From assembly GCF_048403405.1 (NCBI RefSeq), contig NZ_CP183129.1: a stretch of DNA of 64,000 bases; one strand, 5' to 3'. This stretch comes from Escherichia coli. GTDB taxonomy: Bacteria; Pseudomonadota; Gammaproteobacteria; Enterobacterales; Enterobacteriaceae. The notes below the pieces were generated by a model. It had not been told where the DNA came from and ran no database searches. It saw nothing but the letters and a program-made list of their open reading frames with translations. Position 1 is the first letter of the stretch, and the number at the start of each line of letters is the position of its first letter. Of the stretch, positions 53,757 to 61,730 are shown one piece after another. The translations under genes were made by a program, and so were the position numbers.

Positions 53757-55883
53757 TTAATCTTCTGCTTCAGGCTGGAACATCAGCACGTAAAAAATAT
53801 GCTGCTTCCCGCCAATCCTGCCGAGCGCCTTTTTCTTGTAACGGCGGTCGCCTCCCGCTTCCAGCATTCCGGCAGCACTCAACGCGCGGGCAAAGTGAGA
53901 CGGATTAAATCCCTGTGCTATCTCACCCTCAAACACATGCGGGAACGTGTAAAAACGGAACTCGTCATCTTCGTTTCTGATACTCCCCTTTCTGTATCCG
54001 GCAAGGTCTTTAATCGGTAAATCACGCTCGTCGCTGTTTGGATAGGGAAGGTATCGACTGAACCCGAACGACGACAAAAACGCCTCAGCCTGTTCAACCA
54101 TCTGTTTAAATTCCCTGTTGCCCGTGCCGAATTCCTTCACCCAGGCATTAAAGTTATGCTGAACTGCATCACGGCACGCCTGAACATCCCAGCCTGTAAC
54201 ATGACCGGAAAGCACAAGCGCGGCCTCCAGTACGGCGAATCTTTCCCCCACACGGTGAACCTGCTCGCCGTAGCTCTCCGGTATCAGGTTGCGCCACCGC
54301 TCGCGACATGCCCTTACCGCGTCCTTTGCCTCCTGCTGGTGACCTGCCAGCCATTTAACCCACTCACGACCTGCCGCCCCGTGATTTTCTGTCCAGGCAT
54401 CTTTTAACGCGTCTGCGTGCGCCTTTCCGGTGCTGTATTCGTGAAACTGCGATGCCTTTTCCATCGGCACGTTAAGCAGACGGACAAGCTGCCCCGCTTT
54501 AATTTTTATCCCTTCCGTTTTGAGGAATGTTTCAACGTCCATTTCTCCGGTGCTGATTGCCACCGTGCGCCAGTGTTTTATCTCCCTGTTGCCGCCGTCC
54601 TTCGCCCCCTGTAATTTCCCGGAACCGTTAAACAGCGTATAGGCTGACGTGGACACCTCCCGCGCGTTTCCGGCCTGGCCTATTTCATCCAGGGGTAACA
54701 GCCCGTCATTATGTGCTTCGGCCTCGTTGGCGATACCTAACGCCGTTCCGTACCAGGTCAGCCGTTGCGCGTCCGGCTCTCCCCATAAACTTGATGCAAT
54801 GTTCTGTGTGGTGGTTTTACCTGCTGATGATTGCTCAAAAAGATGAACCCCGAAGCCGTCAGCACCCACCAGCCCGATTAATGGTGCGGATAGCGATACC
54901 GCCACACCCAGCATCATGGACGGATTACCACCAGCCAGCCGTGCCACGGTATCGCGCCAGCCCTCCGCTGTTCCCGCCACGGAATAGCCATTAACAGCGG
55001 CAGTTTTTCCGGTAAACAGGATGGGTTTCTCTGATTCACCAATGACCGAACCATCCGGCATGATGTACGCACCAAAATGCCACCCCGTTGTTGTGCTTAA
55101 CTGCCATTCCTCATGGTTTCCGCTTAACTGCATCCAGTCAGCCAGGATAGCCCTGTATTTGCCGTTGGTCGTCACGTTAAGGCCGTGGTCTTTCAGCAAC
55201 CGCCAGCCGTCACGGTCACCAATGCCTCCGCACGGGACCGCCATTGTAATGACCTCATGGTTTGCTGGTTTTTTCCAGCGCATCACGCGGTAATGCTCTT
55301 TGCCGATTGTTCCTGTTCCCAGTAGTTCAAGCGGAGAACATAACCACGTCTCAGGCCGGATAATTTCGCCTGACTGCTTGTCCACTTTGGGCGTTACCCA
55401 GAAAACACCATCGACGCGACTTTCAACACGAGGCTTTAATTCGTCATCATAATTTCCGGTGAAATTTGTCTTCGCCGGAAGGTTGATCACCAGACTGTTA
55501 CCGCGTTCCGCATCATCCTTCAGTCCAGCCATGCGCGGTGTCCAGTCCTCCGGCTGCTGATCAACAAAGCTGCGGTAGCAACGCGCCTCCTTCACACCCG
55601 CCACTGCAAGCAGTGTCGCTATCTGTGTAAGGTGCTGCTCTGATATTTCACCAGCACGATAAACGCGCACGTAATAGCGCCCTTTGTCGATGATTTGCGT
55701 GTCTGCCAGACTCGCCAGTTGTTCCGGTCCAAGAATAACTGGATGTGTATCATCTGCCGCAATATGCTTTCCGGCCCATTCGCTCCACTCTTTCGCATGT
55801 GCCCAGGCATCACTACCCGCAAAGATAATCACCTCCGTCATTTTGTCTTTCGGCTGGTGCTTTAAATTCGGTGCGCGTTTCAT
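53757..55883 (-). CDS. Satellite/P4-alpha-like replication protein (primase-helicase with P-loop)
   Basis: 708 aa. Walker A EQSSAGKTT and Walker B LLPLDEIGQ. The size and position (after alpA and the small ORFs, next to the iterons) match PICI pri-rep / P4 alpha-type proteins. Confidence 0.75.
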   Translation of the reverse strand: MKRAPNLKHQPKDKMTEVIIFAGSDAWAHAKEWSEWAGKHIAADDTHPVILGPEQLASLADTQIIDKGRYYVRVYRAGEISEQHLTQIATLLAVAGVKEARCYRSFVDQQPEDWTPRMAGLKDDAERGNSLVINLPAKTNFTGNYDDELKPRVESRVDGVFWVTPKVDKQSGEIIRPETWLCSPLELLGTGTIGKEHYRVMRWKKPANHEVITMAVPCGGIGDRDGWRLLKDHGLNVTTNGKYRAILADWMQLSGNHEEWQLSTTTGWHFGAYIMPDGSVIGESEKPILFTGKTAAVNGYSVAGTAEGWRDTVARLAGGNPSMMLGVAVSLSAPLIGLVGADGFGVHLFEQSSAGKTTTQNIASSLWGEPDAQRLTWYGTALGIANEAEAHNDGLLPLDEIGQAGNAREVSTSAYTLFNGSGKLQGAKDGGNREIKHWRTVAISTGEMDVETFLKTEGIKIKAGQLVRLLNVPMEKASQFHEYSTGKAHADALKDAWTENHGAAGREWVKWLAGHQQEAKDAVRACRERWRNLIPESYGEQVHRVGERFAVLEAALVLSGHVTGWDVQACRDAVQHNFNAWVKEFGTGNREFKQMVEQAEAFLSSFGFSRYLPYPNSDERDLPIKDLAGYRKGSIRNEDDEFRFYTFPHVFEGEIAQGFNPSHFARALSAAGMLEAGGDRRYKKKALGRIGGKQHIFYVLMFQPEAED

Positions 55884-56182
55884 TTCTTGCCCCTGAATGC
55901 GTTAATCATGTTCTTTATTACCTGAATATTTGCCCGTGCTTTCTCTTTACTGGTGGGCTTACTGCGTGGTACTGCACATACCAGTGAAAAATCACGCCGG
56001 AACTGATGAACGGGCATCACACAGTCATAGTCGTACCCTGCGCGGCGGTATGTAATGTGCCGTTCATACACGGAATTAATAACCACGCTGTCACCATATT
56101 TATCCCGGAAAATATCCCCGATCCTGATTTTCGGGTGAGTCTGTCCGCTGGCATTTAAGCCAGTAAATTTAATCTTCTTCAT
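55880..56182 (-). CDS. Hypothetical 100-aa protein
   Basis: ORF track entry. 4-nt overlap with the primase start; in the operon. Confidence 0.5.
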   Translation of the reverse strand: MKKIKFTGLNASGQTHPKIRIGDIFRDKYGDSVVINSVYERHITYRRAGYDYDCVMPVHQFRRDFSLVCAVPRSKPTSKEKARANIQVIKNMINAFRGKK

Positions 56183-56184
56183 GT

Positions 56185-56442
56185 TTATTTCCCGGTGTGA
56201 GGTTCTTCTTTATATTTATGGGCTAACAAATCTGGTAATTGCCTGTATTTATCCTCGGCAATATATTCAGAATAATCGACAGCACTGTTCAGTATATCTA
56301 ACGCCGTTTCATGCTCCAGATTCGAAACTATAAGGAACGTTGCTACTTTTAGCATATTCGCGATATGCAAAAGAGCATCAATTTCATTTTTTGGCGCTTC
56401 ACTGAATTTTTGCTCCAGAAGAATAAATCGTTCATCACGCAT
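56185..56442 (-). CDS. Hypothetical 85-aa acidic protein
   Basis: ORF track entry. Overlaps the stop of the upstream icd-like gene by 8 nt and ends 2 nt before the start of the downstream 100-aa gene; AT-rich. Confidence 0.5.
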   Translation of the reverse strand: MRDERFILLEQKFSEAPKNEIDALLHIANMLKVATFLIVSNLEHETALDILNSAVDYSEYIAEDKYRQLPDLLAHKYKEEPHTGK

Positions 56443-56638
56443 AGTATTCCCCCTGACGGATGCGGGCAGTAAATACCATCACGCAGCCAGCCGGGGATTG
56501 CTGACGGGCTTCCTGTTCGCTGGCGGCCTCGATGTGTATTACGCGTGGTTGTGCGGTGCTCAGGGCGATAAAACGCCAGATGTATTTATTCAGGTTGTGC
56601 GAGTCCCGCCCTTGCGGGTGTGTGGTATGATTTAACAT
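56435..56638 (-). CDS. Icd-like (P4-type host cell-division inhibitor-like) 67-aa protein
   Basis: Only the last 67 codons of the 345-aa track ORF are used, from the ATG at 56638 preceded by GAGG. YIWRFIALSTAQPRVIHIEAASEQEARQQ...VMVFTARI resembles Icd-like proteins of P4-like elements, from memory. Confidence 0.5.
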   Translation of the reverse strand: MLNHTTHPQGRDSHNLNKYIWRFIALSTAQPRVIHIEAASEQEARQQSPAGCVMVFTARIRQGEYYA

Positions 56639-56736
56639 AGCTACCTCGATACGCTTTCTATCGTTGGTGGTTAGACGCCCTGCATGTGTTGCGAGCACTG
56701 CGGGGCGTTGCTTAATTTGAGCAATGCAACCCAAAC

Positions 56737-56816
56737 TGTGCGCACAGATTAAAATCATGTGTGCGCACATGTCAATACTTAACTTCTCACTTTTTTTGCT
56801 GTATTGTGTGCGCCCA
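56737..56816. promoter_or_regulatory. Three copies of the palindrome TGTGCGCACA in the divergent region between the icd-like and RHH genes (candidate operators O1-O3)
   Basis: Perfect copies at 56737-56746 and 56760-56769; a 9/10 copy (TGTGCGCCCA) at 56807-56816. Confidence 0.6.
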
Positions 56817-56843
56817 TCAAATCCATTTAAGTGAGGTGTACCA

Positions 56844-57041
56844 ATGTCTAGCGGAAACACAAACAACAAATCAGCAAAGAAAAATATTCGATTCCCGCAC
56901 GAGCTTATAGATGGGATTGATGCCAGTGTTGAACAAGAAAAATTAACTAATCCTAGTGCTAATTTTTCCGCATGGGTCTTAGATGCCTGTGGACGCAAAT
57001 TAAAATATGAACAGCGCCGGAAGGCCAAAGAGCAGGAGTAA
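56844..57041 (+). CDS. Ribbon-helix-helix-type small DNA-binding protein (candidate element repressor)
   Basis: 65 aa with RBS GAGGTG 5 nt upstream. KKNIRFPHELIDGIDASVEQ... is a typical RHH N-terminal strand and helix. It is one of only two plus-strand genes in the element. Confidence 0.55.
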   Translation: MSSGNTNNKSAKKNIRFPHELIDGIDASVEQEKLTNPSANFSAWVLDACGRKLKYEQRRKAKEQE

Positions 57042-57098
57042 CCATCACCAGCGCCGTGGTGCGGTGAACTGTGGCGCACAGGGTTACAGGTATCTACG

Positions 57099-57296
57099 AT
57101 GACTGACAAATCATTAAAGAAATTATCCTCATCCAGGAAAAAACAACGCAAAAATGCGGTAAGCGAACAAGAACAGGAAAGATTTGCGCCATGTGCGTTT
57201 GTCCTTGAGAAGTTCTTAAAAGAGTACAGGCGCACAAAAATGGGATCGCATACCTGGAAAACATCGCAGTATGGCGATGCTAAAGAGCAGGAATAG
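57099..57296 (+). CDS. Hypothetical 65-aa basic protein
   Basis: ORF track entry with a weak RBS. It shares its last 17-19 nt (AAAGAGCAGGAxTAxCC, peptide ...AKEQE) with the preceding gene. Confidence 0.35.
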   Translation: MTDKSLKKLSSSRKKQRKNAVSEQEQERFAPCAFVLEKFLKEYRRTKMGSHTWKTSQYGDAKEQE

Positions 57297-57386
57297 CCCA
57301 CCAGCAAGCCAGCACACTGATCACATTGCCCACCAGCCGCAAATCTGGCATTGTTGGCGATGCGTTTGATTTCCTTTGTTCCCACT

Positions 57387-57415
57387 GGCGACCTATCCCG
57401 GTCGCCTTTGTTTTG
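57387..57415 (+). terminator. Terminator of the plus-strand RHH transcription unit
   Basis: GGCGACC-tatccc-GGTCGCC followed by TTTGTTTTG. Confidence 0.75.
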
Positions 57416-57464
57416 CCTGTTATCCAGCAACGGGGCGCTTTTTCTTTCTGTAACGTTCGGATCG

Positions 57465-58208
57465 TTACGCATGGCTGCTCACCTCCATGCGGCGGGCTAA
57501 CCAGCGTTGCGAAAGACGAATTAATTCAGCTTTCCGCTGGTGGTAGTCCTGGCCTAACTCAATCAGCGTGATATTGCTCTGCTCAAGGTAAGAAAGGTGC
57601 TCAAGCTGCAGCGTGCTCATGTGGTCGCGTGGTTCGCCTGTGATGCCGTTCGCCTGCGCCCACTGTTTTGCAGTCATGCCACCCAGCACGATACGCGCCA
57701 GCATATTGGCTTCCGTGGTGTAGTGGTGCTGGAGCGTGTTTTTACCCAGTTCAGCGCGGTACGCCTCCAGCGCGGCACACATCGGCTTAAAGTAGCTGGC
57801 AACGGTGATACGGGCTTTCAGTTCACGGCGTAACGCTGCGGAACGCACTGGCGCTACTTTGTGTAGCTCCTCCTCGCATTTGATGAAGTACTGACGAATA
57901 GCGCGGCCCTGTTCGGTACGCTCGACCATCGCAAGTTCTTTCGCCATGTTGATGGTACTCAGGTAGTCGTGCTCTACACGTTGGCGAGATTTTGCGCTCA
58001 CCGGATTGGGGGAGGTCAAATTTTCTACAAACTCAAAATCCACGCCATTTTTAAATCCGTACTGATCAATACGCCCTTTAATCCATGTAGTGAAATCACG
58101 CTTCACACCAAGCGCCTTATGTAACGCTCTGGCGCTGACAATGGCTGTTTCATGTCCGCCAATAATGCCAGGTGATACCGGAATAAGTGCGGCGAAATCC
58201 TTAAGCAT
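57465..58208 (-). CDS. AntA/AntB-type phage antirepressor-domain protein
   Basis: 247 aa. ...VSARALHKALGVKRDFTTWIKGRIDQYGFKNGVDFEF...INMAKELAMVERTEQGRAIRQYFI... matches the AntA N-terminal domain pattern, from memory. Confidence 0.6.
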   Translation of the reverse strand: MLKDFAALIPVSPGIIGGHETAIVSARALHKALGVKRDFTTWIKGRIDQYGFKNGVDFEFVENLTSPNPVSAKSRQRVEHDYLSTINMAKELAMVERTEQGRAIRQYFIKCEEELHKVAPVRSAALRRELKARITVASYFKPMCAALEAYRAELGKNTLQHHYTTEANMLARIVLGGMTAKQWAQANGITGEPRDHMSTLQLEHLSYLEQSNITLIELGQDYHQRKAELIRLSQRWLARRMEVSSHA

Positions 58209-58899
58209 GATTTACCCCCAGATACGGCTCAGATGTCATCAGGCTGGCGAATGTCTCCATGCGTCGGGCAACCTCCCGCACTGCTTCGGTAGGTGTCATG
58301 CCGTTCTGTATCGCCTCCTCAAATGCGGCCTGTTCGATTTTCTGCATGACAATCAGCAAGCCTAACTGCTGCTCGCTGGCTGTGCCTCGTTCGCCAGTTA
58401 CCAGACCTGTAACACGGTTCTCTGCGCGTGCCAGATTGATGTAATGGTGACGTTCTGCGCCCAGTGCTTTAAGCCCGTCACGGCTTTCGTGATAGCCTGG
58501 CAGATATTCACGGCGTACAGGCTCGGTAGCGCGATGTTTTGCGAATGCCTTCGTAACATCCAGCTTGAAGCGGTTCATGCGTTCATCATCACGACCGCGC
58601 ACAATGCGACACATGTAATCAAACTGATCGCTATTCAGGAGGGCAAACTTATGTTCACGCTCCCCGTTTTGACGGGTTTTTAATCGCTCCGTTTGAAACG
58701 GAAGGATGCCCAGTTCACGCAATCCGGTTTTGTGCTTCTGAATGAGCGAATAAAGGTTTTTGTGCTTTATGCCAATACGCTCAGCAAATAAGCGGGAATC
58801 AATGCGCGACTCCGCTTTGTGGCGAACCAGAATATCGCTCATGCTGGTTTCAGGCCGAACGAAGCCCTGCCCCTGTACGGGCGTTTTTCGCAGTTTCAT
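58201..58899 (-). CDS. Rha-family phage regulatory protein
   Basis: 232 aa. ...SRIDSRLFAERIGIKHKNLYSLIQKH...FALLNSDQFDYMCRIV... is Rha-like, from memory. RBS AGGTG. Confidence 0.6.
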   Translation of the reverse strand: MKLRKTPVQGQGFVRPETSMSDILVRHKAESRIDSRLFAERIGIKHKNLYSLIQKHKTGLRELGILPFQTERLKTRQNGEREHKFALLNSDQFDYMCRIVRGRDDERMNRFKLDVTKAFAKHRATEPVRREYLPGYHESRDGLKALGAERHHYINLARAENRVTGLVTGERGTASEQQLGLLIVMQKIEQAAFEEAIQNGMTPTEAVREVARRMETFASLMTSEPYLGVNHA

Positions 58900-58973
58900 A
58901 AAAACACCTGCTATTAAATTAAGTTACTTTTGTTTGCTGGTGGGGTTGAACGTCATCCCCCGTAGTCATTTAA

Positions 58974-59192
58974 TCAGGCTGATGTGTTTCGGCGTTCTGC
59001 CAGCCAGTTATTAATTTCCACCGCATCAAACGCAGTCACGTTATCTGTTAGCTTCACTGGGCGTGGAAGAGTGCCATTTTTAACCCATCTATCAATAGTA
59101 GGCAGTGAAACACCTAGCAATTCCGGCATGCGAAAGCGACGGATGTATCCAGTTGTTGGGATAGCTGATGATGCTGGCTTGTGTGCTGTCAT
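58974..59192 (-). CDS. alpA: AlpA-family (MerR-like winged-helix) transcriptional regulator/excisionase-type protein
   Basis: 72 aa. ...RRFRMPELLGVSLPTIDRWVKNGTLPRPVKLTDNVTAFDAVEINNWL is a typical AlpA signature. Confidence 0.8.
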   Translation of the reverse strand: MTAHKPASSAIPTTGYIRRFRMPELLGVSLPTIDRWVKNGTLPRPVKLTDNVTAFDAVEINNWLAERRNTSA

Positions 59193-59272
59193 ATCTCTAG
59201 TAACCTCTCTGATAGCTCATGAAGTTACTTAAAGTTTAGTGGTTGCCCATACAGTATTTCTATTAAGACTAG

Positions 59273-59324
59273 AATCTATTGAAAGAAATTATAAATCTAT
59301 TGAAAAAATACCGATCCACTGAAA
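59273..59324. promoter_or_regulatory. Three phased 12-bp boxes upstream of alpA
   Basis: AATCTATTGAAA at 59273 and 59294 (exact copies, 21 bp apart) and GATCCACTGAAA at 59313 (9 of 12 positions). Confidence 0.45.
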
Positions 59325-59484
59325 GATTGCAAATGCAAGTGGGATAATTATTTTCTTTATTTTCAATTAGTTACCAGTTTAAAAAATCATTGTTTTATCA
59401 AAGAGTTATATCTTTCATCGTCATTCATCATGTTTTTACATTTCCTTTTATCTTTTATTATTCAATTGGTTGAGTCGGTTTATA

Positions 59485-59520
59485 ATGGCTCATGATGGCT
59501 TAAAATGGCTAATGATAGCT
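59485..59520. repeat. Four tandem 10-bp units ATGGCTNNNN (the last is ATAGCT), overlapping a perfect TATAAT
   Basis: ATGGCT at 59485, 59495 and 59505; ATAGCT at 59515; TATAAT at 59481-59486. Confidence 0.5.
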
Positions 59521-59663
59521 GGCGTATCTTTTAGAGATGGGGTGATTACAGATGAACTAAGCCGAACAGATATAGCAATGGCTAGGCATAGAATTATCTA
59601 TGCTGGTGGAGATGGGTAAACAGGTAATGCCCCGCCATTGCTTTGGAGGGGCGTGAAAAGTGA

Positions 59664-60314
59664 TTAGTCGAGATCGTGGACAGCTAATAAAGCCCGTGAG
59701 ATTTTTTCTAGGAATGTGGCTTTTGCTATTCCTTTATGGGATATCCCTTCATCCTTGATTAAGGTTTCTATGTCACGGTATATAGCTGTGCGATTAGGTT
59801 TCCCATTTTGGATGTAGGAAGATGAGCCTGATTTTTTTATCAGCAGATGTACTATCAACCCCATCATTTTCATTGTCCCGTTTTCCTCATCCTGCTTTCT
59901 ATGCTGCCCACGTCCGCTGCGGTTGGTTTCTTTGATGTAGTTTACTAACTGGAGTCCTCCAAGGTTTCGGGCTTTTTCTTCCCAGCCCTTGGTGCCACGC
60001 AAATCATCAATCGCTTCTGATATTTTCTGAACAATTATTTCTGGTGTATTTGTGTCAATAAATGGGTAAGAAGCTAAGAAAATATCAAGGGCATGGCAAG
60101 GCTCGTCTTTACTAGTTTTTTCACCTCTGTACACCTTGATAGCTCTGGCAAGATGAGTTCTGACAAAATCGACATATTCGAAATTTTCCTCAGGCACATC
60201 GCTAATGCGCATAGATGGGTTTAGGCCAGCCAAGGCCACAGCCATTTCATGAGGGGTAATCGATACAGATGAACAAAGCCGTTCGATTGGCGATTTTCTC
60301 AAGATGTTGTTCAC
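59664..60314 (-). CDS. Hypothetical 216-aa protein, translationally coupled to the integrase
   Basis: The GTG start overlaps the int stop (atGTGA). More AT-rich than int. No motif recognised, though a helix-turn-helix near the C-terminus is possible. Confidence 0.55.
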   Translation of the reverse strand: MNNILRKSPIERLCSSVSITPHEMAVALAGLNPSMRISDVPEENFEYVDFVRTHLARAIKVYRGEKTSKDEPCHALDIFLASYPFIDTNTPEIIVQKISEAIDDLRGTKGWEEKARNLGGLQLVNYIKETNRSGRGQHRKQDEENGTMKMMGLIVHLLIKKSGSSSYIQNGKPNRTAIYRDIETLIKDEGISHKGIAKATFLEKISRALLAVHDLD

Positions 60315-61579
60315 ATTTGCCTCCGGGCTTTATCGAATGGCGTTACGTTGTAGTCTTTCCCGCTTTCCAGTGCCACCAGCAGATCAGCCCACTGTGCCAG
60401 CGCAGCTTTACGCTCATCAAAATACTGATGGCGGTTATAAATCCCCTCCACACCCTTAATGCGATGATTGAGGCATCGTTCCGCTACGACAGGATCAACA
60501 CCCAATGCTGCTAAATGAGTACGTGCGGTACGCCGGAAGTCGTGAATCGTGAAATTAGGCACATCCGGCATTTCGGCGCGAACCTTAGCCAGTGCTACGG
60601 GTAAAGTGCTTTCCTGAATATGTGGGATCATTCTGTTTTGCATCTTCCTGGCTGGAAGCACCCATGCGCTATTACATGAAAAGGTGTGTAGCTCTCTCAA
60701 CCATTCAACGGCAGGAGAAGGTAGAGGTATATCAATAGGGTCTCCGTTTTTGCTGCGTTCTTCCGGCAAATGCCATACCGCACCATCTAAATCAAACTCT
60801 TCCCATCGTGCGGCGCATAACTCCATCTTACGAACGCATAGTGCCAGCAATAGCTTAAATGTCAGTTCGTTCTGGCGGCTGAATCCTTTTGCGGTGCGCA
60901 TAGCCTCGAATAGCCTGATAAGCTCATCGCGAGTTAGCCAACGGTCGCGGGAAACCTCTTTACCACCAGCATCAGATACTTCAAACGCTGAACAAGGGTT
61001 TATCTCCAGAGCGTGGCGTTTTATCCCATAGTCAAAGATACGGCGTGTCCAGCGTAATACATCTGTTGCTATCGTTGGTGCTCCTCGGTCAACGATACCT
61101 TTCAACATGTCGTCAATGTGGCGTGGCTTAACGTCCTCTACCTTCATATGCCCAATGCAGGGGTTAATATCCTTATCAATTCTCCGGCGAAGGATATCGG
61201 GATGTTTCCATCTCGGAAGTATCTGTCGCTCGAAGTATTCGGCGGCCAGATCTGAAACGCGCATGGCGTTTTTCTCAGCCTCCATTTTTGCCAGTGCTTC
61301 AGCTTTTCGTTCCTGTTTTTCTGCTGCTACGTCATAGCCAAGAGCAACTCTGGCTGACAGCTCTTTTGCTATTTCTCTGGCTTTTGATAGTGACAGTTCG
61401 GAGTAAGAGCCGATAACCATAGCCCGCTGTTTTCCTGCGAGCTTATATCGGAATCGCCAGAACGGGACTGTGTAGTTTTTGGGGTAGCAAATATAAAGGC
61501 CGTTGCCGTCTGCCTTGCCATCAAATCTGTCTCCCGCCTTTATCCATGCGCGGATCTGCATATCTGTGAGTTTTGGCAT
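60311..61579 (-). CDS. int: P4-type tyrosine integrase
   Basis: Trimmed to the ATG at 61579 (MPKLTDMQIRAWIKAGDRFDGKADGNGLYICYP...FWRFRYKLAGKQR...), giving 422 aa. The C-terminal catalytic region includes ...HDFRRTARTHLAALG...ERCLNH...GIYNRHQY. Confidence 0.9.
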   Translation of the reverse strand: MPKLTDMQIRAWIKAGDRFDGKADGNGLYICYPKNYTVPFWRFRYKLAGKQRAMVIGSYSELSLSKAREIAKELSARVALGYDVAAEKQERKAEALAKMEAEKNAMRVSDLAAEYFERQILPRWKHPDILRRRIDKDINPCIGHMKVEDVKPRHIDDMLKGIVDRGAPTIATDVLRWTRRIFDYGIKRHALEINPCSAFEVSDAGGKEVSRDRWLTRDELIRLFEAMRTAKGFSRQNELTFKLLLALCVRKMELCAARWEEFDLDGAVWHLPEERSKNGDPIDIPLPSPAVEWLRELHTFSCNSAWVLPARKMQNRMIPHIQESTLPVALAKVRAEMPDVPNFTIHDFRRTARTHLAALGVDPVVAERCLNHRIKGVEGIYNRHQYFDERKAALAQWADLLVALESGKDYNVTPFDKARRQM

Positions 61580-61636
61580 TGCGAATACCTGAATATCGAA
61601 TATGGGTGTGTACATAAAGCAATGTACATGAAAGTC

Positions 61637-61660
61637 ATTATGTACACCTCTATGTACACG
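61637..61660 (+). repeat. attR-like direct repeat, within a cluster of four TGTACA motifs (61606-61660)
   Basis: ATTATGTACACCTCTATGTACACG matches 22 of 24 positions of 42824-42847. It is preceded by gtgTGTACAtaaagcaaTGTACAtg. Confidence 0.75.
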
Positions 61661-61701
61661 CATATTGTGCGCTTTGTTGCGTCGTTATGATAGCTCATGA
61701 T

Positions 61702-61730
61702 AACAAAAAAGCCCGACATTTCGCGGGCTT
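61702..61730 (-). terminator. Intrinsic terminator (minus strand)
   Basis: The minus strand reads AAGCCCG-cgaaatgt-CGGGCTT followed by TTTTTTGT. Confidence 0.7.

What the first reader, a model, noticed from the sequence alone, without database searches (positions are those of the whole stretch)
59664..60314. Unknown 216-aa gene wedged between int and alpA and translationally coupled to the integrase
Seen in the sequence: the GTG start overlaps the int stop (atGTGA). The gene is more AT-rich than int and is followed by a 470-bp AT-rich control region.

Established knowledge: in Gram-negative PICIs, alpA normally follows int directly. Int-proximal positions of satellites and islands are recurrent landing pads for accessory genes, including anti-phage genes.

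Inference: the gene is one of two things.
- A cargo or defence gene expressed with int.
- A regulator of the element, a functional Stl analogue. The C-terminal third (PNRTAIYRDIETLIKDEGISHKGIAKATFLEKI) could be a helix-turn-helix, and phased boxes lie just downstream in front of alpA.

I recognise no family.
Basis: inference. Interest (0 to 1): 0.55.

Follow-up and report, generated by a model that had tools for sequence, protein, structure and literature searches.

The report
Integrase-coupled orphan gene of phage satellites
The 216-aa gene is real and belongs to a small uncharacterised family with no recognisable fold that always sits directly behind the integrase of Enterobacterales phage satellites, so it looks like a life-cycle gene (most likely a regulator) rather than swappable cargo, though its function is unproven.

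Summary
ORF 59664-60314(-) starts at a GTG inside ATGTGA, 5 nt after a GGAGG. It is 42.5% GC against 49.3% for int, and is followed by 471 bp at 34% GC, then alpA.

The family is small: 35 representatives among 1.84 billion proteins, all named ones from Enterobacterales. It matches no Pfam, NCBIfam or PADLOC model, only phrog_30524 (function unknown). The AlphaFold model is confident (pLDDT 90.6), all-alpha, and has no neighbour in PDB or BFVD.

In about 20 distinct elements (PICI, cf-PICI, P4-like) the gene always abuts a P4-type int, even at 23-36% identity. Where defence cargo is present (PD-T7-5, PDC-S47), it lies between this gene and alpA. So the gene is not hotspot cargo.

It does not co-vary with Int. 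One E. coli element whose Int is 94% identical carries an unrelated 316-aa gene in the slot, with an AlpA-like HTH at weak significance. In E. coli 202 genomes carry the 216-aa type and 118 the 316-aa type.

Best reading, at about 0.35: an immunity-like regulatory cassette made together with Int. The phased boxes in front of alpA are more probably AlpA/Vis sites. Separate 10-bp arrays still lack a binder.

The parts
61605..61660 (-). Four (T/G)ATGTACA repeats upstream of int. They are candidate Int arm-type sites, and two further copies lie at the other end of the element (42826-42848).
   Evidence: Read from the sequence. The assignment is inferred by analogy with the annotated attP arm repeats of P4.
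60311..61579 (-). int, a P4-type tyrosine integrase of 422 aa.
   Evidence: Pfam Arm-DNA-bind_3 1.4e-19, Phage_int_M 2.4e-16, Phage_integrase 8.5e-17. RefSeq annotates the 1269-nt form.
60320..60324 (-). GGAGG Shine-Dalgarno for the 216-aa gene, embedded in the last codons of int, 5 nt before the GTG.
   Evidence: Purine-rich stretches that I read as SD-like sit before the start in 10 other loci.
59664..60314 (-). The 216-aa gene. Its GTG start overlaps the int stop. The product is an orphan all-alpha protein of family phrog_30524.
59574..59642 (-). Structured RNA or DNA element just after the stop codon: a 16-bp long-range stem with no U-tract. It may be a 3' end or stability element.
   Evidence: Inverted repeat I3. 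MFE -28.4 kcal/mol, z = -3.2, 2 of 200 shuffles fold as well. GC-rich hairpins follow the stop in other loci.
59477..59520 (-). Array of four tandem 10-bp repeats (coding strand ATCATTAGCC ATTTTAAGCC ATCATGAGCC ATTATAAACC).
   Evidence: A 10-bp array of element-specific sequence lies in this spacer in 19 of 21 non-redundant loci that had enough downstream sequence. The motif differs from the pri-linked iterons and from the Int arm sites.
59327..59476 (.). AT-rich spacer (about 31% GC) between the arrays and the boxes.
59274..59326 (-). Three boxes TTTCAaTaGAtT phased at 21 and 19 nt, directly upstream of alpA. They are probably AlpA/Vis-type autoregulatory sites.
   Evidence: Box sets are conserved across the family and stay with alpA in L013 and L038. 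AlpA activates its own promoter in Gram-negative PICIs (PMC10111431, PMC11773190).
58974..59192 (-). alpA (72 aa), the master activator/excisionase-family gene. It marks the end of the mosaic 'integration zone' block.
   Evidence: Pfam Phage_AlpA 6e-06. Identity to sister element L042 breaks at the 3' end of alpA.

Best explanation
The gene is a conserved component of the 'integration zone' (attP arm, int, this gene, spacer, alpA) of an about 19-kb phage satellite of the Gram-negative PICI type.

**Shown**
- It is translated from the int message by coupling: the start overlaps the int stop and a GGAGG lies 5 nt upstream.
- It is under purifying selection.
- It encodes a confidently modelled all-alpha protein with no known fold neighbour.
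- It always lies immediately after a P4-type int.
- It is swapped as a cassette independently of int.

**Inferred**
- It is a DNA-binding regulator made together with Int in the integrated or establishing state.
- It sets the state of the alpA-driven induction programme, in effect an immunity or maintenance function. This is comparable in logic to the repressor-plus-integrase lysogenic operons of P2 and 186 and to Stl of SaPIs.
- It probably acts on the spacer downstream of it. The element-specific 10-bp arrays there are the best candidate sites, not the alpA-proximal boxes.
- The unrelated 316-aa gene that replaces it in sister elements would be an alternative regulator of the same slot.
For: **1. 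Operon and coupling with int are conserved across the family**.

**2. Context is exclusive**
- All of about 20 distinct loci place the gene directly after a P4-type int.
- These include PICI-like elements, the cf-PICI record vB_KppS-Ant and Ogr/Delta-bearing P4-like satellites.
- Protein identity falls to 23-36%, and Int identity between elements falls to 27-30%.

**3. Immunity-like mosaicism**
- Window versus L008: Int 88%, this protein 36%. The nucleotide identity drop falls at the int/ORF junction.
- Window versus L004: Int 65%, this protein 71%, AlpA 86%.
- Pearson r is 0.73-0.81 between this protein and AlpA, against 0.53-0.56 between this protein and Int. Spearman values are less distinct.
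- In L042 the block from attP arm through int, this gene and the spacer to alpA is 97-100% identical, and everything after the 3' end of alpA differs.

**4. Either/or occupancy in E. coli**
- 202 genomes carry the 216-aa family and 118 carry the unrelated 316-aa family, out of 353 genomes with a related alpA.
- The two sister elements examined sit at the same yicC site, and L043 has an Int 94% identical to the window's.
- The N-terminus of the 316-aa family aligns to the AlpA wHTH with pairwise hhalign E 0.002 but probability only 14%. This hints that the slot encodes DNA-binding proteins.

**5. Weak DNA-binding signs in the 216-aa family**
- The C-terminal motif IS.KG..KSTF(Y).KI resembles an HTH recognition helix.
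- Sub-threshold hits to HTH_Tnp_Mu_2, SpoIIID and HTH_20.
- pI is about 8.3-9.2, with the positive charge in the C-terminal half.

**6. Orphan binding sites**
- 10-bp tandem arrays occur almost only in this spacer.
- They are neither the pri-linked ori iterons nor the Int arm repeats.
- The array-and-box region is absent in L043, which carries the 316-aa gene instead, even though its AlpA is 74% identical to the window's.
Against: - Elements with identical C-terminal halves of this protein (same 72%-identity group) carry different sets of arrays (L017, L022, L024). L013 and L038 have homologues but no arrays.
- P4 has similar 10-bp 'ori type 2' repeats upstream of vis and no homologue of this gene.
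- The gene points the same way as alpA and has no clear intrinsic terminator after it, so read-through from Pint would have to be handled.
- Classical Gram-negative PICIs are described with alpA next to int and no such gene (PMC10111431; PMC11773190 describes a different small gene in that position).
- There is no expression, binding or phenotype data.
Confidence: 0.35

Rival explanations
1. An accessory 'moron' expressed with int in the integrated state. It would be an anti-phage, helper-interference or host-modulating protein that forms the conserved first gene of an int-proximal defence locus.
For: - The DNA between this gene and alpA does hold defence genes in some elements: PD-T7-5 in L038, and PDC-S47/Abi_alpha plus an Mrr-like gene in L013.
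- In P4 the genes just downstream of int (cII, beta, gop) form a defence hotspot (PMC9122126).
- GC is lower than in the rest of the element.
- Fast divergence and replacement by an unrelated gene fit an arms race.
- The 316-aa family has a marginal PADLOC candidate hit, PDC-S31 at E 0.002.
- Many unannotated genes in P4 hotspots proved to be defensive (PMC13586616).
Against: - No PADLOC match.
- It is retained when real cargo is inserted next to it.
- Only two alternative families account for most related E. coli elements, rather than the hundreds of arrangements seen in P4 hotspots (PMC9122126).
Confidence: 0.25
2. A recombination accessory factor for the integrase: a directionality factor, an architectural protein, or a regulator of Int activity or stability.
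For: - Strict adjacency and translational coupling to int imply co-production with Int.
- The position is kept even when the int family is exchanged (Int identity 27-30%).
Against: - The protein does not co-vary with Int. Int at 84-94% identity is paired with this protein at 33-36% identity or with an unrelated protein.
- At 216 aa and all-alpha, it is unlike the small winged-helix Xis, AlpA or Cox factors.
- An AlpA-family gene, whose relatives are known as excisionases or directionality factors, is already present (PMC10111431).
- The candidate arm sites (ATGTACA) are about 1.3 kb or more from this gene and unlike the arrays.
Confidence: 0.1
3. A centromere- or iteron-binding protein for the plasmid or replicating state of the satellite. 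It would bind the 10-bp tandem arrays as a partition, handcuffing or secondary replication site.
For: - Tandem 10-bp arrays lie next to the gene in most elements, up to 11 exact copies in L028.
- P4 has 10-bp 'type 2' repeats within its annotated origin upstream of vis.
Against: - The true ori-type iterons lie downstream of pri and have other motifs.
- There is no partner NTPase.
- Arrays differ between elements whose proteins have identical C-terminal halves, and are absent in L013 and L038.
- P4 has such repeats without this gene.
Confidence: 0.05

Closest known systems
Lysogenic operons of P2 (C-int) and 186 (cI-int); from my own knowledge of these phages
   Same: - A maintenance regulator and the integrase are made from one transcript.
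- The regulator acts on an adjacent control region for the lytic or induction genes.
   Different: - The order here is int first, then the gene.
- The gene points towards alpA rather than away from it.
- There is no sequence or fold similarity to C or CI, and repressor activity has not been shown.
Stl master repressors of SaPIs/PICIs (e.g. PDB 6H4C)
   Same: - All-alpha proteins specific to satellites.
- Very divergent between elements that share integrases.
- Encoded in the int-proximal regulatory module.
   Different: - Stl is transcribed divergently from the induction operon and has a recognisable N-terminal HTH.
- The Foldseek match to 6h4c_H is noise (E 6.5, TM 0.13).
P4 cII (sce7726 family), part of the gop-beta-cII defence locus
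   Same: Exact positional equivalent: the first gene after a P4-type int on the same strand.
   Different: - No homology (hhalign probability 0.2%; tblastn finds no match in P4).
- cII sits in a hypervariable hotspot (PMC9122126), whereas this gene is conserved.
The 316-aa family (WP_151140350 / WP_072644820) in sister satellites at yicC
   Same: - Same slot between int and alpA, on the int strand; in L043 the Int is 94% identical to the window's.
- Uncharacterised and restricted to Enterobacterales.
- Little room for overlap in E. coli: 202 plus 118 genomes out of 353 with a related alpA.
   Different: - Not detectably homologous (hhalign probability 0.3%).
- Has an AlpA-like N-terminal wHTH signal, a variable middle and a highly conserved C-terminal 75 aa.
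- In L043 it is followed by a hairpin with a T-run (my reading of the sequence) and a spacer of only 106 nt, without arrays.
EcCIMP1_002 of PICI EcCIMP1 (PMC11773190)
   Same: A gene of unknown function between int (_001) and alpA (_003) in an about 20-kb E. coli PICI that carries PerC, a primase and ejection-protein-like late genes.
   Different: That protein is described as only about 10% of the size of UvrB and was mis-annotated as UvrB-like. The paper reports only that it did not rescue a uvrB mutant from UV. It does not appear to be the same family.

Membership tests
phrog_30524 (PHROGs, unknown function) | Significant full-length match to the family profile | tested here: met
   E 3e-34, residues 11-209 against profile positions 14-213 of 220. 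The only phage-collection record with a match is the cf-PICI-like vB_KppS-Ant.
Gram-negative PICI 'integration zone' (Int + AlpA; PMC10111431) | Lies in, and is inherited with, the int-alpA block at the int end of the element, co-oriented with int, alpA and pri | tested here: met
   The gene order int, this gene, alpA, Rha/AntA (Bro zone), DUF927 primase, late zone matches the published zones. The attP arm-to-alpA block is 97-100% identical to L042, with the break at the 3' end of alpA.
Satellite master repressor (Stl-like) | Recognisable sequence-specific DNA-binding domain | tested here: inconclusive
Satellite master repressor (Stl-like) | Divergently transcribed from the induction operon it represses | tested here: not met
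   The gene is on the same strand as alpA, downstream of int.
Satellite master repressor (Stl-like) | Highly divergent or replaceable between elements with conserved integrases | tested here: met
   Int 84-94% identical against this protein at 33-36% identity or an unrelated 316-aa protein.
Satellite master repressor (Stl-like) | Binds operators and is released by a helper-phage protein | not testable with these tools
   Needs EMSA or ChIP and helper-induction genetics.
Anti-phage defence cargo of a satellite hotspot | Match to a known or candidate defence model | tested here: not met
   PADLOC returns 0 families at E up to 1.
Anti-phage defence cargo of a satellite hotspot | High turnover at the slot, and homologues in other genomic contexts | tested here: not met
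   The gene is always directly after a P4-type int in about 20 distinct loci and is kept when PD-T7-5 or PDC-S47 cargo is inserted downstream. Caveat: one alternative family occupies the slot in sister elements.
Recombination directionality factor (Xis/AlpA/Cox type) | Small winged-helix protein that co-varies with its integrase and att arms | tested here: not met
   216 aa, all-alpha. hhalign to AlpA gives probability 0.5%. The protein is decoupled from Int identity.
P4 cII / sce7726 family | Sequence homology | tested here: not met
   hhalign probability 0.2%. tblastn of the phage collection, which includes P4, finds only vB_KppS-Ant.

The most novel reading that the evidence does not exclude
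The 216-aa family, and its alternative the 316-aa family, would be the missing maintenance and induction-sensing regulators of Gram-negative phage satellites.

- Each would be an orphan-fold protein made with Int.
- It would bind the element-specific 10-bp arrays upstream of alpA and hold the satellite silent.
- It would be displaced or inactivated by a helper-phage product.
- The cassette type would then define satellite 'immunity groups' and helper specificity.
Probability: 0.2. Interest if true: 0.8.

Novelty: new variant of a known kind. Interest (0 to 1): 0.55.

Why it matters
**The open question.** How Gram-negative PICI-type satellites stay silent, and how a helper phage switches on alpA, is not understood. 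The papers I could read state only that alpA is activated by the helper and activates itself (PMC10111431, PMC11773190, the cf-PICI preprint).

**What this adds.**
- A conserved int-coupled gene that behaves like an exchangeable cassette next to the alpA control region is a concrete, easily testable candidate for that missing layer.
- So are the 10-bp arrays, which lack a binder.
- The family occurs in PICI, cf-PICI and P4-like satellites. It is in about 4% of complete E. coli genomes for the two alleles detectable by DNA similarity, and a third diverged subfamily is represented by 1438 member sequences.
- Satellite annotation schemes that list only Int and AlpA in the integration zone therefore miss a recurrent component.

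**If it turns out to be a defence or interference gene instead,** it would be a single-gene system with a new fold, linked to the integrase.

Tried and rejected
**Searches on the protein that found nothing useful**
- Pfam, NCBIfam and PADLOC on the protein, and Pfam on 24 family members: nothing significant.
- PDB profile search at E up to 10: 0 hits.

**Homology tests, all rejected**
- To P4 cII, to AlpA and to the 316-aa family. My by-eye alignment of the C-terminal halves of the 216-aa and 316-aa families was not supported by hhalign.

**RNA**
- Rfam over the whole element found no C4/CI-type immunity RNA or any other family.

**Ideas about the spacer, considered and rejected**
- That the spacer is the satellite origin bound by the primase: the pri-linked iterons are different and lie downstream of pri.
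- That the arrays are Int arm sites: the arm candidates are ATGTACA repeats at the element ends.
- That array sequence tracks the protein: this fails for L017, L022 and L024.

**Collection scans**
- Genome contigs gave only 2 loci.

**Literature**
- Searches for the protein accessions or the PHROG id found no papers.
- A search for P4 ori1/crr papers found none in the library.

Full report
**1. What is there**

The window is E. coli DNA. The int-to-spacer region of the window (59200-60400) matches other E. coli chromosomes at 99.8-100% identity. An about 19-kb element occupies roughly 42757-61807. On the minus strand it reads:
- int (60311-61579),
- the 216-aa ORF (59664-60314),
- a 471-bp spacer,
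- alpA (58974-59192),
- Rha and AntA/B genes, an Icd-like gene and DUF4222,
- a DUF927 primase, SSB, ProQ/FinO and PerC,
- four large late genes.

This matches the four-zone layout published for Gram-negative PICIs: integration, Bro, replication, late (PMC10111431).

- The GTG lies inside ATGTGA, and a GGAGG sits 5 nt upstream within int.
- GC is 0.425 for the ORF, 0.493 for int and 0.340 for the spacer.
- Three phased boxes lie at 59274-59326.

**2. The gene is real and belongs to a small orphan family**

- Pfam, NCBIfam and PADLOC give nothing. PHROGs gives phrog_30524, function unknown, at E 3e-34.
- A word-indexed search found 19 close relatives.
- An exhaustive profile search of 1.84 billion representatives found only 35, almost all 206-241 aa.
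- A profile search of the 5.8-billion set found 67. Nearly all named hits are 'hypothetical protein'. The named organisms are Escherichia, Salmonella, Klebsiella, Buttiauxella, Serratia and Yersinia.
- Conserved motifs are an N-terminal ER...IT..E.ALAL.GLNP, then TPE, LGG, SGRGxH/YRKxDE..GT.K..GLL..LL, KPN...IY.DI and IS.KG..KSTF..K.
- dN against relatives is 0.12-0.24 while synonymous sites are saturated.
- With the 24-sequence alignment, AlphaFold2 gives pLDDT 90.6 and pTM 0.60 for an all-alpha protein with nine helices.

**3. Context: always directly behind a P4-type integrase**

Every homologue context I could read has int (Arm-DNA-bind_3 + Phage_int_M + Phage_integrase) immediately upstream. 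Starts overlap the int stop by 4 or 1 nt, or lie 1-2 nt after it. One locus has a 98-nt gap. The contexts are:
- the E. coli 68% allele at yicC, including O157:H7;
- Buttiauxella at der;
- other yicC elements;
- metagenomic contigs at 26-31% identity;
- P4-like satellites with Ogr/Delta and an alpha-type primase, including Yersinia;
- the 16.5-kb cf-PICI-like 'phage' vB_KppS-Ant, with capsid, portal and terminase genes;
- a very diverged E. coli subfamily at the smpB/ssrA site.

alpA usually follows after 300-590 bp.

In two lineages cargo lies between the homologue and alpA:
- PD-T7-5 (E 2e-137) plus two unknown genes in L038;
- PDC-S47/Abi_alpha plus an Mrr-like gene in L013.

So a landing pad exists downstream of this gene, but the gene itself is retained.

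**4. The gene is not tied to Int; it behaves as a cassette with the spacer and alpA**

- Window versus L008: Int 88%, this protein 36%, AlpA 56-66%. The nucleotide identity falls from about 0.8 to about 0.5 at the int/ORF junction.
- Window versus L004: Int 65%, this protein 71%, AlpA 86%.
- L028 versus the others: Int 30%, this protein 43-48%.
- Over 105 pairs, Pearson r is 0.73 for this protein against AlpA and 0.56 for this protein against Int. Spearman values are 0.63 and 0.40, with Int against AlpA at 0.64, so the correlation argument is only moderate. The discordant pairs are the solid part.
- A separately assembled, circularly permuted 19,226-bp record (NZ_LT599831.1) carries the identical protein. 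In it the block from attP arm through int, this gene and the spacer to alpA is 97-100% identical to the window. Everything after the last codons of alpA differs, including the primase type and P22-like ejection genes.

**5. An alternative occupant**

- 353 E. coli genomes have a related alpA, but only 202 have this gene by DNA similarity.
- Two sister elements at yicC carry, in the same slot and on the same strand, an unrelated protein of 316-321 aa. In L043 the Int is 94% identical to the window's and the AlpA 74%.
- In L043 that gene is followed by a hairpin with a T-run (my reading of the sequence) and a spacer of only 106 nt, without arrays or the triple box.
- This second family is also uncharacterised and restricted to Enterobacterales. 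It has a variable middle and a highly conserved C-terminal 75 aa. It occurs in 118 E. coli genomes.
- It is not detectably homologous to the 216-aa family (hhalign probability 0.3%).
- Its N-terminus aligns to the AlpA wHTH at pairwise E 0.002, but the hhalign probability is only 14%.
- Together, 202 plus 118 genomes account for most of the 353. The slot therefore seems to be filled by one or the other and is rarely empty. That is the pattern of alternative alleles of a needed function, not of a free hotspot. P4 hotspots show more than 300 arrangements (PMC9122126).

**6. The spacer**

Its architecture recurs across the family:
- a GC-rich hairpin after the stop. In the window it is a 16-bp long-range stem with z = -3.2;
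- one or more arrays of tandem 10-bp repeats. Period 10 was the best-scoring period (among 9-11 tested) in all 23 loci scored, though in L013 the score was too low to call an array. Sequence and number differ between elements. There are four copies in the window at 59477-59520 and 11 exact copies in L028;
- an AT-rich stretch;
- three or four boxes phased at about 21 bp next to alpA.

The boxes are conserved even where this protein is 26-36% identical. A different box type (ATCCGGAC) stays with alpA in L013 and L038, and CCGGAC-type motifs also lie upstream of P4 vis. Because AlpA activates its own promoter in Gram-negative PICIs (PMC10111431, PMC11773190), I assign the boxes to AlpA. This is an inference.

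The arrays are not primase iterons. Each element has its own 8-9-bp inverted iterons downstream of pri. In the window these are TGCGGGTTA/TAACCCGCA at about 53575-53735, with a second cluster at 43231-43258. The arrays are also not the Int arm candidates, which are ATGTACA repeats at both element ends. The arrays therefore lack an assigned binder, and the 216-aa protein is a candidate.

Three observations weaken that link:
- elements whose proteins have identical C-terminal halves differ in array sets (L017, L022, L024);
- L013 and L038 lack arrays;
- P4 has three similar 10-bp 'ori type 2' repeats upstream of vis and no homologue of this gene.

**7. Mechanism**

*Shown:* co-translation with Int; purifying selection; orphan all-alpha fold; exclusive int-adjacent context; cassette behaviour independent of Int; either/or occupancy with an unrelated family that has a weak wHTH signal.

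*Inferred:* the protein is a regulator made with Int in the integrated or establishing state. It would control the alpA programme, in the way P2 and 186 place repressor and integrase in one lysogenic operon and in the way Stl does for SaPIs (my own knowledge of those systems).

*Confidence:* about 0.35. No DNA-binding domain reaches significance, and the gene points towards alpA without a clear terminator.

*Rivals:*
- a conserved defence or interference gene (0.25);
- an Int accessory factor (0.10), disfavoured by the lack of co-variation with Int;
- an array-binding maintenance protein (0.05).

The remainder is unassigned.

**8. Comparison with the literature**

None of the papers I could search or read names this gene or family. 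EcCIMP1 has a different small gene between int and alpA. The paper reports only that it failed to rescue a uvrB mutant from UV (PMC11773190).

**9. Verdict**

The hotspot-cargo reading is not supported for this gene, although a hotspot exists just downstream of it in related elements. The gene is a recurrent, undescribed component of the satellite integration zone with a new fold, and it is of moderate interest.

Noticed in passing
window 44091-51523 (-): The late zone holds four genes that resemble podovirus internal-virion or ejection proteins: phrog_11983, phrog_684 (virion structural protein), phrog_3003, and phrog_1044 (873 aa; RefSeq annotates a transglycosylase SLT domain). The satellite appears to carry captured helper ejection genes. 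Sister element NZ_LT599831.1 instead has genes RefSeq annotates as a DUF2824 family protein, a phage DNA ejection protein and an injection protein.
   Followed up: partly
window about 53575-53735 and 43231-43258: Ori-type iterons TGCGGGTTA/TAACCCGCA flank an AT-rich stretch downstream of the DUF927 primase. A second small cluster lies at the far end of the element, reminiscent of the P4 ori1/crr pair. Each related element has its own iteron sequence downstream of pri.
   Followed up: partly
window 61605-61660 and 42826-42848: (T/G)ATGTACA repeats occur at both ends of the element. They are candidate arm-type sites for the integrase.
   Followed up: no
window 42745-42757 and 61768-61807: In this genome the element sits in a secondary site, at the 3' end of a gene (leucine-rich-repeat domain or 'hypothetical protein' in RefSeq annotations) between cvrA and dadX. 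The empty site is NZ_CP103479.1 2993341-2993352, where TTAATCAACATT compares with the element's TTATTCGATATT. Nearly all relatives examined sit at the 3' end of yicC.
   Followed up: partly
L042 (NZ_LT599831.1, 19,226 bp): A sister element was assembled as a separate, circularly permuted record ('phage_14408_2'), with the injection-protein gene split across the record ends. This suggests an excised or replicating form in that culture. It carries the identical 216-aa protein (WP_001059729.1) but different Bro, replication and late zones.
   Followed up: partly
L043 4795-5745 and L044 4803-5768 (E. coli, yicC site): An uncharacterised family of 316-321 aa replaces the 216-aa gene between int and alpA. 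It has a weak AlpA-like N-terminal wHTH signal, a variable middle and a highly conserved C-terminal 75 aa (ERHA.NREKL.KSAIYLLSKYPDECRG...). It occurs in 118 of 5426 E. coli genomes.
   Followed up: partly
L038 9995-11167 (E. coli, smpB/ssrA site) and L013 1963-4895: Defence genes lie between a homologue of the 216-aa gene and alpA: PD-T7-5, and PDC-S47/Abi_alpha plus an Mrr-like gene. This marks an int-proximal defence landing pad in these satellites that differs from the psu-int hotspot described for P4.
   Followed up: partly
L028 (IMG/VR contig), 133-336 nt after the homologue's stop; also L015, L022, L024, L025, L027: There are long, sometimes perfect, arrays of 10-bp tandem repeats, for example AGCTACAGCA x11. 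Several different arrays can lie in series. Elements whose proteins have identical C-terminal halves differ by gain or loss of whole arrays. Their binder and role are unknown.
   Followed up: partly
window 59470-59619 (+): A 49-aa TTG ORF on the opposite strand overlaps the 10-bp array. It is probably spurious.
   Followed up: no
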